Positions 5,632 to 58,260 of a stretch of DNA of 64,000 nt are shown here, in pieces. A program made the position numbers and the translations under genes. The notes under the pieces were generated by a model. The model was not told the origin of the DNA. It made no database searches and worked only from the letters and a program-made list of their open reading frames with translations. Within the stretch, counting starts at the first letter, position 1. The number at the start of each line of letters is the position of its first letter. The DNA lies in NCBI RefSeq assembly GCF_011045215.1, contig NZ_CP049201.1. One strand, given 5' to 3'. This stretch comes from Escherichia coli. GTDB lineage: Bacteria; Pseudomonadota; Gammaproteobacteria; Enterobacterales; Enterobacteriaceae.

Positions 5632-5743
5632 AAATAGATGATAATAGGGCGTGTCTGTATGTAGATTTGTTCGACAACGCTTTATAGTACCCTTCTGATA
5701 ATAGTTAACCCTGGGGTGAGATGCCCCGATCCTGGAGATATGG

Positions 5744-6556
5744 ATGAAATCACTGTTTAAAGTAACGCTGCTGGCGACCACAATGGCCGTTGCCCTGCAT
5801 GCACCAATCACTTTTGCTGCTGAAGCTGCAAAACCTGCTACAACTGCTGACAGCAAAGCAGCGTTCAAAAATGACGATCAGAAATCAGCTTATGCACTGG
5901 GTGCCTCGCTGGGTCGTTACATGGAAAACTCTCTAAAAGAACAAGAAAAACTGGGCATCAAACTGGATAAAGATCAGCTGATCGCTGGTGTTCAGGATGC
6001 ATTTGCTGATAAGAGCAAACTCTCCGACCAAGAGATCGAACAGACTCTGCAAGCATTCGAAGCTCGCGTGAAATCTTCTGCTCAGGCGAAGATGGAAAAA
6101 GACGCGGCTGATAACGAAGCAAAAGGTAAAGAGTACCGCGAGAAATTTGCCAAAGAGAAAGGTGTGAAAACCTCTTCAACTGGTCTGGTTTATCAGGTAG
6201 TAGAAGCCGGTAAAGGCGAAGCACCGAAAGACAGCGATACTGTTGTAGTGAACTACAAAGGTACGCTGATCGACGGTAAAGAGTTCGACAACTCTTACAC
6301 CCGTGGTGAACCGCTCTCTTTCCGTCTGGACGGTGTTATCCCGGGTTGGACAGAAGGTCTGAAGAACATCAAGAAAGGCGGTAAGATCAAACTGGTTATT
6401 CCACCAGAACTGGCTTACGGCAAAGCGGGTGTTCCGGGGATCCCACCGAATTCTACCCTGGTGTTTGACGTAGAGCTGCTGGATGTGAAACCAGCGCCGA
6501 AGGCTGATGCAAAGCCGGAAGCTGATGCGAAAGCCGCAGATTCTGCTAAAAAATAA
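5744..6556 (+). CDS. fkpA: periplasmic FKBP-type peptidyl-prolyl isomerase FkpA
   Basis: 270-aa ORF with signal peptide MKSLFKVTLLATTMAVALHA and FKBP domain. Confidence 0.95.
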   Translation: MKSLFKVTLLATTMAVALHAPITFAAEAAKPATTADSKAAFKNDDQKSAYALGASLGRYMENSLKEQEKLGIKLDKDQLIAGVQDAFADKSKLSDQEIEQTLQAFEARVKSSAQAKMEKDAADNEAKGKEYREKFAKEKGVKTSSTGLVYQVVEAGKGEAPKDSDTVVVNYKGTLIDGKEFDNSYTRGEPLSFRLDGVIPGWTEGLKNIKKGGKIKLVIPPELAYGKAGVPGIPPNSTLVFDVELLDVKPAPKADAKPEADAKAADSAKK

Positions 6557-6565
6557 GCATTAAGA

Positions 6566-6596
6566 ACCGCCGCCTGACCAGGCGGCGGTTTTTTTA
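6566..6596 (+). terminator. rho-independent terminator after fkpA
   Basis: accgccgcc-tgacca-ggcggcgg followed by tttttttatt. Confidence 0.75.
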
Positions 6597-6722
6597 TTAC
6601 AGGCCGGATATAATTAGTGCTGGAAAGCGGAACCTCCGCTGTATTAATTTAGTTACCCGCATCATTAATGAGCCTGCCCTGAAAAGTTAACGACAGGCTC
6701 CTGAAAAGGAGTGTTTTTTTTC

Positions 6723-7830
<1,108 letters not shown>

Positions 7831-25486: not shown

Positions 25487-25576
25487 AGCCAGCCAATCTT
25501 TTGTATGTCTGTGCGTTTCCATTTGAGTATCCTGAAAACGGGCTTTTCAGCATGGAACGTACATATTAAATAGTAG

Positions 25577-25942
<366 letters not shown>

Positions 25943-39293: not shown

Positions 39294-40835
<1,542 letters not shown>

Positions 40836-40903
40836 CCTTAAAGAAGCGTTCTTTGTAGTGCTCACACAGATTGTCTGATGAAAATGAGCAGTAAAACCTC
40901 TAC

Positions 40904-40980
<77 letters not shown>

Positions 40981-41022
40981 AATTTGCACGGCAAATTTGA
41001 AGAGGTTTTAACTACATGTTAT

Positions 41023-41098
41023 GGGGCTATAGCTCAGCTGGGAGAGCGCCTGCTTTGCACGCAGGAGGTCTGCGGTTCGATCCCGCATAGCTCCACCA
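41023..41098 (+). tRNA. alaU: tRNA-Ala (anticodon UGC)
   Basis: ggggctatagctcagctgggagagcgcctgctttgcacgcagg...ctccacca. Confidence 0.97.
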
Positions 41099-41161
41099 TC
41101 TCTGTAGTGATTAAATAAAAAATACTTCAGAGTGTACCTGCAAAGGTTCACTGCGAAGTTT

Positions 41162-41176
41162 TGCTCTTTAAAAATC
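41162..41176 (+). promoter_or_regulatory. spacer boxA element
   Basis: tgctctttaaaaatc upstream of 23S. Confidence 0.7.
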
Positions 41177-41272
41177 TGGATCAAGCTGAAAATTGAAACA
41201 CTGAACAACGAAAGTTGTTCGTGAGTCTCTCAAATTTTCGCAACTCTGAAGTGAAACATCTTCGGGTTGTGA

Positions 41273-44175
<2,903 letters not shown>

Positions 44176-44268
44176 ACAACGCCGAAGCTGTTTTGGCGGA
44201 TTGAGAGAAGATTTTCAGCCTGATACAGATTAAATCAGAACGCAGAAGCGGTCTGATAAAACAGAATT

Positions 44269-44388
44269 TGCCTGGCGGCCGTAGCGCGGTGGTCCCACCT
44301 GACCCCATGCCGAACTCAGAAGTGAAACGCCGTAGCGCCGATGGTAGTGTGGGGTCTCCCCATGCGAGAGTAGGGAACTGCCAGGCAT
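44269..44388 (+). rRNA. rrfD: 5S ribosomal RNA, copy 1
   Basis: tgcctggcggccgtagcgcggtggtcccacctgacccc...ctgccaggcat, 120 nt. Confidence 0.97.
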
Positions 44389-44400
44389 CAAATTTAGCGT

Positions 44401-44476
44401 GCTGATATGGCTCAGTTGGTAGAGCGCACCCTTGGTAAGGGTGAGGTCCCCAGTTCGACTCTGGGTATCAGCACCA
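44401..44476 (+). tRNA. thrV: tRNA-Thr (anticodon GGU)
   Basis: gctgatatggctcagttggtagagcgcacccttggtaagggtgagg...atcagcacca. Confidence 0.97.
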
Positions 44477-44513
44477 CTTTTTAGGTTAAAGTTCGGCAGA
44501 TTAGAAAAGAATT

Positions 44514-44633
44514 TGTCTGGCGGCAGTAGCGCGGTGGTCCCACCTGACCCCATGCCGAACTCAGAAGTGAAACGCCGTAGCGCCGATGGTAGTGTGGGGC
44601 CTCCCCATGCGAGAGTAGGGAACTGCCAGACAT
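44514..44633 (+). rRNA. rrfF: 5S ribosomal RNA, copy 2
   Basis: tgtctggcggcagtagcgcgg...ctgccagacat, 120 nt; distal 5S after thrV identifies the rrnD-type architecture. Confidence 0.96.
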
Positions 44634-44693: not shown

Positions 44694-44910
44694 TTAATGG
44701 ATTACCTGCGATAAAAATGCCCTCGTACGCTCTGATTTAGGATGCGCAAAAAATTCATCAGGTGCAGCTTGCTCCACTATTTCCCCACGATCCATAAAAA
44801 TTACCCGGTCAGCGACGGTTCGTGCAAACCCCATCTCATGTGTTACACACAACATTGTCATACCCGACTGCGCCAGCCCAATCATCGTATCCAGCACCTC
44901 TTTCACCATC
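44694..44910 (-). pseudogene. yhdZ: yhdZ 3' fragment (ABC ATPase C-terminus, H-loop region) cut off by the IS insertion
   Basis: 71-aa remnant MVKEVLDTMIGLAQSGMTMLCVTHEMGFARTVADRVIFMDRGEIVEQ; its ATG is adjacent to the IS end. Confidence 0.85.
44905..44910. repeat. target-site duplication ACCATC (copy 1)
   Basis: Identical 6-mer abuts both IS ends and maps to the yhdZ ..EMVK.. codons. Confidence 0.75.
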
Positions 44911-47412
<2,502 letters not shown>

Positions 47413-57054: not shown

Positions 57055-57255
57055 TCAGTCCTGAAAATTCAGTTCGTCACAGTTAACCAGTTTTAGTGGA
57101 TTAACTGAGTTCATATTGCGGCATTTGTCTGTTTCTGTTGCCAGCAGTTCAATCCACTGCATCAGTAAAGTATCAAACAGAAAAACGAAGACAGCGAAAA
57201 CGACGAGCCACCAATACTTGCGAATCATTACCTGAGCCTGTGCATGTTTAACCAA
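57055..57255 (-). CDS. yhdU: small membrane protein YhdU
   Basis: ORF with a single TM segment (YWWLVVFAVFVFLF); true start may be the internal Met (MIRKYWW). Confidence 0.6.
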   Translation of the reverse strand: MVKHAQAQVMIRKYWWLVVFAVFVFLFDTLLMQWIELLATETDKCRNMNSVNPLKLVNCDELNFQD

Positions 57256-57311: not shown

Positions 57312-58202
57312 TTACTTTGTAATGAGATCGGGGTCAACTTCGCTTAACCGGCTTCGTTTTGACAGGTTGCCGGTCTTTCTTTTTTTCACTTTCGCCAGTT
57401 CTTCCGCAGAGTAATGCGACGCGACATCCAGCCGTCGAAGCCCCATTTTGATGTACTCGCTGTTGATCTCAATACCAATGAATTTTCGTCCGCTGGCGAT
57501 GGCTACGGCACCGGTAGTAAAGCTACCAGCAAACGGGTCGAGAACGATATCGCCTGGGTTGGAAGAGGCGAGAATAATGCGTTTCAGTAAGGCTTCCGGT
57601 TTTTGCGTCGGGTGGTTTTCATATTCATCCATCAAATAACGCACGCGAGGAAAATCCCAGACGTTACCCGGTACTTTTTGATGATTGTAAGGCTGTGGAG
57701 GATTTTTGCGATAATCGATCAACGCGCGCTGCGATCCGGTTTTGGCTTCTACCAGAATAGCATCACCGTTGAATGTGTAGTTCTTTGCGTCTTTCACCAT
57801 CATCAGGATGGGTTCGTACATGGAGCCGTAGTGTTTTTTCGCCTGCACTCCAGAACTGTCATAGGACCAGACGATCCGACTTTTGATGGTAAAAAGCTTG
57901 CGGCACTGGAGATCGATAAAGGGCATGTTTTCCGTACTGTTCATGATGTACATGCTGCCCTGCTTTTTCAGAACGCGGTGGCACTCTGCAATCACTTCAA
58001 ACAGCCAGTCGATAAACAGATCTTCTTTCCAGGCTTCGATCAGACCATCAAAATTTTTACCGATGTTATACGGTGGGTCGGCAAAGATCAGATCGACGCT
58101 TTCAGTAGGTAGCTTTTTAAGTTCGGCAAGGGCATCACCGTGAATAATGGTCTTAGCTTCATTACCAAACCGGGTCGGTTCACATCCTGTTCTCATGGTC
58201 AC
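57312..58202 (-). CDS. yhdJ: orphan N6-adenine DNA methyltransferase YhdJ
   Basis: ORF with the DPPY motif (FADPPYNIG) and SAM-binding region; start may be 2 codons downstream. Confidence 0.92.
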   Translation of the reverse strand: MTMRTGCEPTRFGNEAKTIIHGDALAELKKLPTESVDLIFADPPYNIGKNFDGLIEAWKEDLFIDWLFEVIAECHRVLKKQGSMYIMNSTENMPFIDLQCRKLFTIKSRIVWSYDSSGVQAKKHYGSMYEPILMMVKDAKNYTFNGDAILVEAKTGSQRALIDYRKNPPQPYNHQKVPGNVWDFPRVRYLMDEYENHPTQKPEALLKRIILASSNPGDIVLDPFAGSFTTGAVAIASGRKFIGIEINSEYIKMGLRRLDVASHYSAEELAKVKKRKTGNLSKRSRLSEVDPDLITK

Positions 58203-58223
58203 TCCCTTTGTGACACCTATAAA

Positions 58224-58260
58224 AAAGGCGCTTCCCCATGCCGAGTAGCGCCTTTTTAAT
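58224..58260 (-). terminator. rho-independent terminator after fis
   Basis: Minus-strand aaaaaggcgct-N14-agcgccttttttat. Confidence 0.75.

What the first reader, a model, noticed from the sequence alone, without database searches (positions are those of the whole stretch)
57312..58202. Orphan N6-adenine methyltransferase gene yhdJ with no restriction partner
A DPPY-motif amino-methyltransferase sits alone between the fis terminator and yhdU-acrS, with no nuclease or specificity gene nearby. From the literature YhdJ modifies ATGCAT sites and is poorly expressed, so this is a known solitary methyltransferase and not a new restriction-modification system.
Basis: partly seen in the sequence, partly recalled or inferred. 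Interest (0 to 1): 0.2.

Follow-up and report, generated by a model that had tools for sequence, protein, structure and literature searches.

The report
Known solitary DNA methylase gene yhdJ
This is the already described E. coli gene yhdJ, a stand-alone DNA adenine methylase (M.EcoKII, site ATGCAT) with no restriction enzyme partner; the finding is correct but ordinary.

Summary
The ORF is real and is yhdJ (M.EcoKII). It is 292/294 aa identical to the E. coli K-12 protein and passes the NCBIfam equivalog NF008572 (588.9 bits, cut-off 292) and Pfam PF01555. DPPY (aa 40-43) lies N-terminal to the AdoMet motif DPFAGSFTTG (aa 220-229). One correction: the start is the ATG at 58196, not the in-frame GTG at 58202.

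The gene sits between the fis terminator and yhdU-acrS. The same order holds in Escherichia, Citrobacter and Salmonella. The CDS is present in 5417 of 5426 complete E. coli genomes and is under strong purifying selection (dN/dS 0.05-0.09).

No nuclease is linked. All neighbours are housekeeping genes. A profile of the restriction enzyme that accompanies YhdJ's closest non-enteric relatives finds nothing in the whole 64 kb window.

Added value: 59-71% identical relatives in cyanobacteria, Bacteroidota and other Proteobacteria almost always have an adjacent Type II restriction enzyme gene. The enteric YhdJ clade nests among them. So YhdJ is the methylase half of a mobile restriction-modification family, fixed alone.

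The literature already describes ATGC(m6A)T specificity, silence in K-12 and partial activity in Salmonella. Verdict: already known, low interest.

The parts
57312..58196 (-). yhdJ coding sequence (294 codons plus stop): beta-class N6-adenine DNA methyltransferase M.EcoKII
   Evidence: ORF. Pfam PF01555 2.4e-64. NCBIfam NF008572 equivalog 588.9 bits against a cut-off of 292, aligned 1-294/294. 292/294 aa identical to K-12 b3262. Annotated yhdJ in 5417 of 5426 complete E. coli genomes.
58197..58202 (-). It is most likely 5' untranslated leader, not coding.
   Evidence: The GTG overlaps the Shine-Dalgarno, and both RefSeq and the NCBIfam model start at the ATG.
58202..58206 (-). Shine-Dalgarno GGGAG, 5 nt before the ATG
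   Evidence: Read directly from the sequence. 100% identical to K-12.
58068..58079 (-). Codons for the catalytic motif IV, D-P-P-Y (aa 40-43)
   Evidence: Invariant in all 69 family members aligned.
57510..57539 (-). Codons for the AdoMet-binding motif I, DPFAGSFTTG (aa 220-229). Because it lies C-terminal to motif IV, the motif order is that of the beta class.
   Evidence: D220, P221, F222, G224, F226 and T228 are invariant in 69 members. The motif aligns with CcrM DPFFGVGTTG.
58221..58257 (-). Intrinsic terminator of the dusB-fis operon: hairpin plus U-run, ending 24 nt before the yhdJ ATG. It forms the upstream boundary of the yhdJ unit.
   Evidence: RNA fold. The hairpin is invariant in Escherichia, Citrobacter and Salmonella. 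The simple terminator scan missed it.
57055..57228 (-). yhdU (DUF2556, 57 aa), a small hydrophobic protein gene that always follows yhdJ in enteric genomes
   Evidence: Pfam PF10831 3.9e-36. Present after yhdJ in 23 of 23 enterobacterial loci that extend that far. Absent from the non-enteric restriction-modification loci.

Best explanation
The feature is yhdJ, the chromosomal gene for the solitary Type II beta-class DNA N6-adenine methyltransferase M.EcoKII. By established knowledge of this enzyme class, the protein binds S-adenosyl-methionine through its C-terminal motif I (DPFAGSFTTG). It flips the target adenine into the DPPY pocket and transfers a methyl group to N6. From published experiments on the 99%-identical K-12 protein, the target is the second A of ATGCAT. 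No restriction enzyme partner exists, so the gene does not form a restriction-modification system. It is a core, vertically inherited gene of Escherichia, Citrobacter and Salmonella at the fixed position fis-terminator/yhdJ/yhdU. It descends from the methylase half of a horizontally mobile Type II restriction-modification family. In E. coli it is expected to be very weakly expressed. The yhdJ start codon lies 24 nt after the fis terminator, which leaves no room for a promoter of its own in between. What is shown here: identity, motifs, synteny, orphan status, ancestry and purifying selection. What is taken from the literature: specificity and silence. What is inferred: the cause of the low expression.
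For: - **Identity.** (PF01555; NF008572 at 588.9 bits against 292; 292/294 aa identical to K-12).
- **Motifs and class.**. The best solved relative is CcrM 6pbd at 1.9e-33.
- **Core gene.** (5417 of 5426 genomes; at least 80% of the CDS in 5387).
- **Purifying selection.** (dN/dS 0.054-0.087 where dS is unsaturated; all orthologues are 294 aa without stops).
- **Orphan status.** Searches show housekeeping neighbours only. One search finds no trace of the cognate REase family in six frames of the 64 kb window or in 24 enterobacterial loci.
- **Ancestry.**. Of 56 non-enteric relatives, 48-49 carry an adjacent PADLOC REase_II PDLC03455 gene, and the enteric clade nests among them.
- **Upstream region.** (terminator; no sigma-70-like site upstream).
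- **Literature.** PMC4444293 reports ATGC(m6A)T and NsiI protection when overexpressed, no methylation signal at 1644 ATGCAT sites in K-12 ER2796, and no deletion phenotype. PMC9239280 reports zero ATGCAT methylation in a Salmonella yhdJ deletion mutant.
Against: - **Nothing contradicts the identity.**
- **No methylation or expression data exist for this strain.** The two substitutions relative to K-12 (I29L, A31T) are untested, although they lie outside the invariant positions.
- **The terminator does not explain silence on its own.** Salmonella has the same invariant terminator and spacing yet methylates about half of its ATGCAT sites.
- **Read-through is not clearly the transcript source.** PMC4751926 reports that deleting dusB-fis does not change yhdJ mRNA.
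- **The primary paper could not be read.** Broadbent et al. 2007 is not held, so its content is taken from papers that cite it.
Confidence: 0.95

Rival explanations
1. Biological role as a genomic vaccine. YhdJ is kept because ATGCAT methylation protects the chromosome against invading restriction-modification systems of the same specificity, either from cleavage on their entry or from killing after their loss. Dcm does this against EcoRII.
For: The restriction-linked relatives are numerous and phylogenetically scattered, including many gut and rumen Bacteroidales. That means a mobile system enteric bacteria could meet. Purifying selection persists with no known phenotype (PMC9239280). The Dcm/EcoRII precedent is cited in PMC11602122. 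Orphan methylases as protection against restriction-modification parasitism are discussed in PMC3424554.
Against: In K-12 the gene gives no detectable methylation (PMC4444293), so it could not protect. In Salmonella only about 50-60% of sites are methylated, and partial methylation does not protect against a nuclease. The ATGCAT specificity of the restriction-linked relatives was not established here. ATGCAT depletion in their loci is only suggestive (O/E 0.56, rank 8 of 64).
Confidence: 0.15
2. Epigenetic regulator. YhdJ methylation at particular ATGCAT sites controls transcription under conditions not yet tested, in the way Dam or CcrM do.
For: The gene is conserved as an orphan. In Salmonella, ATGCAT methylation is the most condition-dependent mark, and unmethylated sites are enriched in intergenic regions.
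Against: Deletion changes only 12 transcripts in LB and none in SPI-2 medium, mostly without an ATGCAT site nearby. No association was found between differential methylation and expression. The gene is silent in K-12.
Confidence: 0.1
3. Part of a working restriction-modification or other defence system whose nuclease is unlinked or unrecognised. One version of this is that yhdU is a functional partner.
For: yhdU always follows yhdJ. yhdU has a marginal PADLOC match to KwaA (E 0.0039).
Against: yhdU encodes a 57-aa hydrophobic DUF2556 protein, not a nuclease, and the KwaA match is at noise level. No REase family hit was found in 64 kb. K-12 lives with unmethylated ATGCAT sites, and the yhdJ deletion has no phenotype. 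The yhdJ-yhdU double deletion has no phenotype in a predation assay.
Confidence: 0.02
4. Decaying remnant of a restriction-modification system, on its way to becoming a pseudogene.
For: It is derived from a restriction-modification family. It is silent in K-12. Occasional IS1 interruptions occur (H36), and a truncation prevails in S. Paratyphi A.
Against: dN/dS is 0.05-0.09 and the length is 294 aa in three genera. All catalytic motifs are invariant. At least 80% of the CDS is matched in 99.3% of complete E. coli genomes. The cloned K-12 enzyme is active.
Confidence: 0.02

Closest known systems
M.EcoKII (YhdJ, b3262) of E. coli K-12
   Same: 292/294 aa identical. Same locus between fis and yhdU. 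The fis-yhdJ intergenic region is 100% identical. It is the orthologue.
   Different: Two substitutions, I29L and A31T, upstream of the DPPY motif. This strain's yhdU ends about 2 codons earlier than the K-12 gene (57 aa against 59 aa annotated).
YhdJ of Salmonella enterica
   Same: Orthologue at the same fis-terminator/yhdJ/yhdU position and 294 aa long. ATGCAT m6A depends on it.
   Different: About 76.5% aa identity to subsp. arizonae and diarizonae. It is detectably active in vivo, whereas the K-12 gene is silent. Salmonella has an extra MHYT-GGDEF-EAL gene between yhdU and acrS.
Type II restriction-modification family: PADLOC MTase_II PDLC03299 with REase_II PDLC03455. From my own recollection of the source organisms, this is probably the AvaIII/NsiI/BfrBI/Ppu10I group of ATGCAT enzymes; that was not verified here.
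   Same: The methylases are 59-71% identical over nearly full length. DPPY, NHPTQKP and DPFxGxFTT are invariant, and many invariant positions lie in the central region. YhdJ's best PADLOC model is this MTase_II (8.9e-156).
   Different: Those loci carry a 345-395 aa restriction enzyme gene immediately after the methylase gene. The window and all enteric loci have none, not even a remnant.
CcrM of Caulobacter (PDB 6pbd)
   Same: Beta-class N6-adenine methylase and the best solved-structure match (1.9e-33, aa 10-265). It shares the DPPY and HPTQKPEALL motifs. It is also an orphan.
   Different: CcrM recognises GANTC, carries an extra C-terminal domain (366 aa against 294 aa) and is a cell-cycle regulator (my own knowledge). 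The NCBIfam CcrM equivalog scores 136 bits against a cut-off of 830, so YhdJ is not a member.
Dcm of E. coli (relative of M.EcoRII)
   Same: A chromosomal orphan methylase, conserved in enteric bacteria, related to the methylase of a mobile Type II system of the same specificity (PMC11602122; PMC4444293).
   Different: Dcm is a C5-cytosine methylase from a different fold family. It is constitutively active and linked to vsr repair.

Membership tests
YhdJ / M.EcoKII orthologous group (NCBIfam NF008572, equivalog) | Full-length match above the curated cut-off | tested here: met
   588.9 bits against a cut-off of 292, aligned 1-294 of 294.
YhdJ / M.EcoKII orthologous group | Near-identity to the experimentally characterised K-12 protein | tested here: met
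   292/294 aa identical, no gaps.
YhdJ / M.EcoKII orthologous group | Conserved chromosomal position dusB-fis / yhdJ / yhdU / acrS | tested here: met
   The same order holds in all the Escherichia, Citrobacter and Salmonella loci that extend far enough: fis in 24 of 24, yhdU in 23 of 23.
YhdJ / M.EcoKII orthologous group | m6A at the second adenine of ATGCAT | not testable with these tools
   Known for the K-12 and Salmonella proteins from the literature. Needs a methylome or an NsiI protection assay for this allele.
Beta-class N6-adenine / N4-cytosine DNA methyltransferases (Pfam PF01555) | Pfam domain above the gathering score | tested here: met
   217.7 bits against 26.7, aa 34-251.
Beta-class N6-adenine / N4-cytosine DNA methyltransferases (Pfam PF01555) | Catalytic (D/N/S)PP(Y/F/W) motif IV lies N-terminal to the AdoMet motif I, with the recognition region between them | tested here: met
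   DPPY at aa 40-43 and DPFAGSFTTG at aa 220-229. Aligns to CcrM, M.MboIIA and M.RsrI. Motif I reads FxGxF rather than FxGxG, and that F is invariant in the whole subfamily.
Complete Type II restriction-modification system | A restriction endonuclease gene linked to the methylase gene | tested here: not met
   A profile HMM of the cognate REase family (38 sequences) gives no hit at E<=10 in six frames of the 64 kb window. The annotated neighbours are housekeeping genes.
Complete Type II restriction-modification system | Methylase belongs to a family whose other members are restriction-linked | tested here: met
   48-49 of 56 non-enteric relatives have an adjacent PDLC03455 REase gene or fragments of one.
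CcrM (NCBIfam NF050803, equivalog) | Score above the curated cut-off, and the C-terminal DNA-binding extension | tested here: not met
   136 bits against a cut-off of 830. The protein ends at aa 294, whereas CcrM 6pbd has 366 aa.

The most novel reading that the evidence does not exclude
YhdJ is the domesticated methylase half of a widely mobile ATGCAT restriction-modification family. That family is common in, among others, gut Bacteroidales. YhdJ was captured once behind the fis terminator in the ancestor of Escherichia, Citrobacter and Salmonella, together with or next to yhdU. Strong purifying selection keeps it because conditional ATGCAT methylation immunises the chromosome against invasion or post-segregational killing by that family. 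This would give the long-unexplained conservation of a 'silent' methylase a testable function. The ancestry part is well supported here. The immunising function is speculation.
Probability: 0.15. Interest if true: 0.45.

Novelty: already known. Interest (0 to 1): 0.1.

Why it matters
In itself it matters little. The gene, its specificity, its orphan status and its silence in K-12 are published, and the gene is annotated in essentially every E. coli genome. The open question is why a methylase with no detectable activity or phenotype in E. coli is kept under strong purifying selection in three genera. The comparison made here shows that its nearest relatives are halves of a mobile restriction-modification system. 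That points to one concrete experiment: challenge with an ATGCAT restriction-modification system. It does not answer the question.

Tried and rejected
- **Terminator scan.** The consensus scan did not report the fis terminator. RNA folding and cross-genus alignment were used instead.
- **Primary paper.** Broadbent et al. 2007 (PMC1913422) is not held. Its results are quoted through PMC4444293 and others.
- **Named enzyme link.** I tried to tie the restriction-linked relatives to a named enzyme through the M.AvaIII sequence used in PMC7489255. The sequence is in neither the text nor the supplements. The ATGCAT specificity of those relatives therefore remains an inference from 59-71% identity and invariant central-region residues.
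- **ATGCAT avoidance test.** O/E is 0.56 (rank 8 of 64 palindromes) in restriction-positive loci and 0.78 (rank 30 of 59) in enteric loci. In the window itself O/E is 0.60 from 6 sites, none near yhdJ. This is suggestive but not decisive, because many palindromes are depleted.
- **Nuclease remnant.** A search for a degraded restriction enzyme remnant in the yhdJ-acrS gap, including yhdU, found none.
- **Terminator as the cause of silence.** I tested whether the fis terminator arrangement explains E. coli silence against Salmonella activity. It does not, because the arrangement is the same in both.
- **Defence-library names.** Pfam and NCBIfam have no model for the neighbour restriction enzyme. 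Only PADLOC recognises it.
- **yhdU as a defence protein.** The PADLOC KwaA match at E 0.0039 was rejected as noise.

Full report
**Observation**

The window carries an uninterrupted minus-strand ORF at 57312..58202 (296 aa from a GTG). The biologically supported start is the ATG at 58196 (294 aa), for three reasons:

- RefSeq annotates the collinear gene as 885 bp in a 99.8%-identical strain and in K-12.
- The NCBIfam equivalog model aligns residues 1-294 of 294.
- The GGGAG ribosome-binding site lies 5 nt before this ATG and overlaps the GTG.

**Identity**

- The protein matches Pfam PF01555 (N6_N4_Mtase, 2.4e-64).
- It matches the NCBIfam equivalog NF008572, 'adenine-specific DNA-methyltransferase', at 588.9 bits against a cut-off of 292.
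- It is 292/294 aa identical to K-12 YhdJ (b3262), differing only at I29L and A31T.
- The 421 nt from the end of dusB through fis to the yhdJ start are 100% identical to K-12.
- DPPY lies at aa 40-43 and the AdoMet motif DPFAGSFTTG at aa 220-229. This is the beta-class order, with motif IV before motif I.
- The best solved relatives are CcrM (6pbd, 1.9e-33), then M.MboIIA and M.RsrI.
- The CcrM equivalog itself is far below its cut-off (136 bits against 830). The protein is CcrM-like, not a CcrM.

**Context**

The window is E. coli chromosome. It is collinear at 99.4-99.7% identity with strain PapM-32-1 and at 98.9% with MG1655.

On the minus strand the order is prmA, dusB, fis, fis terminator, yhdJ, yhdU. 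Convergent acrS follows, and then acrEF.

The fis terminator is a 14-pair hairpin at 58222-58257, followed by a U-run that ends at 58221. The 83-nt stretch containing it folds at -24.2 kcal/mol, z -2.7. It ends 24 nt before the yhdJ ATG. The simple scan found no sigma-70-like site upstream of yhdJ.

The rest of the 64 kb holds ribosomal protein operons, an rrn operon, an amino-acid ABC transporter and similar housekeeping genes. No nuclease or specificity subunit is annotated there.

**Conservation**

- The 1.3 kb locus is found in 5423 of 5426 complete E. coli genomes.
- The CDS is found in 5417 of them. At least 80% of its length is matched in 5387, and IS1 interruptions are rare.
- Pairwise dN/dS against other Escherichia alleles is 0.054-0.087 where dS is unsaturated (0.05-0.57).
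- Citrobacter and Salmonella orthologues are all 294 aa without stops.

The gene is maintained by selection. It is not decaying.

**Where it comes from**

A scan of one genome per species returned 80 loci. Twenty-four are Escherichia, Citrobacter or Salmonella. All 24 have fis immediately upstream, and all 23 that extend far enough have yhdU downstream. The fis terminator hairpin is invariant and lies 22-28 nt before the start codon in all three genera.

The other 56 loci are 59-71% identical relatives. They are scattered over Nostoc/Anabaena, Prochlorococcus, Pseudoalteromonas, Marinobacterium, Pseudomonas, many Bacteroidota, Chlorobiaceae and some Clostridia.

Clustering the flanking ORFs showed one gene family immediately after the methylase gene in 48 of these loci and in no enteric locus. 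The products are 345-395 aa. The gene is co-directional in Bacteroidota and convergent in Proteobacteria and cyanobacteria. Pfam and NCBIfam have no model for it. PADLOC identifies it as a Type II restriction enzyme, REase_II PDLC03455 (E 1e-61 to 1e-157). YhdJ's own best PADLOC model is MTase_II PDLC03299 (8.9e-156).

I built a profile HMM from 38 full-length members of the nuclease family and searched the six-frame translations. The results were:

| Loci | Result for the nuclease |
|---|---|
| 38 non-enteric | intact |
| 6 non-enteric | fragmented or shortened |
| 4 non-enteric | cut off by a contig end |
| 1 non-enteric | a weak distant piece |
| 7 non-enteric | absent |
| Whole 64 kb window | nothing at E<=10 |
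| 24 enteric loci | nothing at E<=10 |

A neighbour-joining tree places the enteric orphans as a single clade nested among restriction-linked methylases. DPPY, NHPTQKP and DPFxGxFTT are invariant across all 69 sequences aligned, and many further invariant positions lie in the central region. This fits a shared specificity but does not prove one.

One genome with an identical Fis and the same terminator lacks both yhdJ and yhdU (L088). yhdU has no homologue in the non-enteric loci.

The simplest reading is this. The methylase gene of a mobile Type II system was fixed once, without its nuclease, just behind the fis terminator in the common ancestor of the three genera.

**What the literature says**

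- PMC4444293 states that M.EcoKII methylates the second A of ATGCAT and protects against NsiI when overexpressed, citing Broadbent et al. 2007. The activity has not been seen in wild-type K-12: no m6A signal at 1644 ATGCAT positions in ER2796. Deletion has no phenotype. [quoted passage not shown]
- A nanopore study of environmental E. coli likewise found no ATGCAT motif (PMC9911048).
- In Salmonella the enzyme is active but partial and condition-dependent. Methylation disappears in the yhdJ deletion mutant, with almost no transcriptomic or virulence effect (PMC9239280; bioRxiv 10.64898/2026.01.27.702048).
- Deleting dusB-fis does not change yhdJ mRNA (PMC4751926). The yhdJ-yhdU deletion has no effect in a predation assay (PMC10728724).
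- The idea that orphan methylases are often degradation products of restriction-modification systems, and may protect against them, is established (PMC3424554). The Dcm/EcoRII precedent is cited in PMC11602122.

**Mechanism**

- Shown here: an intact beta-class DNA amino-methyltransferase with all catalytic and cofactor motifs; no partner nuclease; core-genome status; purifying selection; ancestry in a restriction-modification family.
- From the literature: N6-methylation of the second adenine of ATGCAT, and silence in K-12.
- Inferred: low expression because the gene begins 24 nt after a strong terminator, with no room for a promoter in between.

This last inference is incomplete. Salmonella has the same arrangement and does methylate. 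The only visible difference is a 5-bp stem (GTCAC-N7-GTGAC) around the ribosome-binding site in Escherichia, against a weaker ribosome-binding site in Salmonella. I could not resolve this.

**Not established**

The recognition site of the restriction-linked relatives was not established. The sequence of M.AvaIII was not available in the paper that used it. ATGCAT depletion in the restriction-positive loci is only suggestive: O/E 0.56, rank 8 of 64, against 0.78 in the enteric loci.

**Verdict**

This is the known solitary methyltransferase yhdJ, not a new restriction-modification system. The novelty class is 'already known' and interest is low. The only residual interest is the old question of why this apparently idle gene is conserved. 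The restriction-modification ancestry documented here suggests a direct challenge experiment for that question.

Noticed in passing
window 44911-46864 (target duplications at 44905-44910 and 46865-46870): A 1954-bp IS100 (IS21 family) is inserted in yhdZ, the ATPase gene of the yhdWXYZ amino-acid ABC transporter. It carries istA at 45756-46778(-) and istB at 44977-45759(-), has TGTCA...TGACA ends and a 6-bp ACCATC target duplication. It splits yhdZ into 46792-47412 and 44694-44909. The element is 99.5-99.8% identical to IS100 copies elsewhere. No complete E. coli genome of 5426 covers the junctions (best coverage 84%), so this insertion site appears specific to the source strain.
   Followed up: partly
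window 58197-58215 (minus strand), and loci L004-L040: In Escherichia only, the yhdJ ribosome-binding site sits in the loop of a 5-bp stem (GTCAC AAAGGGA GTGAC) directly before the ATG. Citrobacter and Salmonella lack this stem. It might bear on why yhdJ is silent in E. coli but active in Salmonella, although the fis terminator and spacing are the same in both.
   Followed up: partly
window 57055-57255 (minus strand): yhdU (DUF2556, a small hydrophobic protein) is invariably paired with yhdJ in Escherichia, Citrobacter and Salmonella. It is absent from the restriction-linked relatives and from a Fis-identical genome that lacks yhdJ (L088). The longest ORF here starts at a TTG (66 aa), whereas RefSeq uses the internal ATG (57 aa). 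The K-12 gene is annotated 2 codons longer. Its function is unknown.
   Followed up: partly
L026-L083 (non-enteric loci), e.g. L042 6839-7972, L032 6853-7920: The restriction enzyme family next to the YhdJ-like methylases has no Pfam or NCBIfam model; only PADLOC PDLC03455 recognises it. In at least five loci (L028, L049, L054, L058, L082) it is split by frameshifts or stops while the methylase stays intact. In seven loci it is absent altogether. These look like independent steps towards orphan methylases.
   Followed up: partly
L086, L089-L091 (Salmonella-type loci) 5665-7764: Salmonella-type loci carry an extra MHYT-GGDEF-EAL signalling protein gene between yhdU and acrS. It is absent from the window and from other E. 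coli.
   Followed up: no
window 39294-44631 and 25507-25618: A complete rrn operon: 16S, two tRNAs (Ile and Ala in the collinear RefSeq genome), 23S, 5S, a third tRNA (Thr in that genome) and a second 5S. A StyR-44 match lies in the spacer before the 23S gene. The alpha-operon ribosome-binding-site element was also found by Rfam. All of this is ordinary.
   Followed up: no
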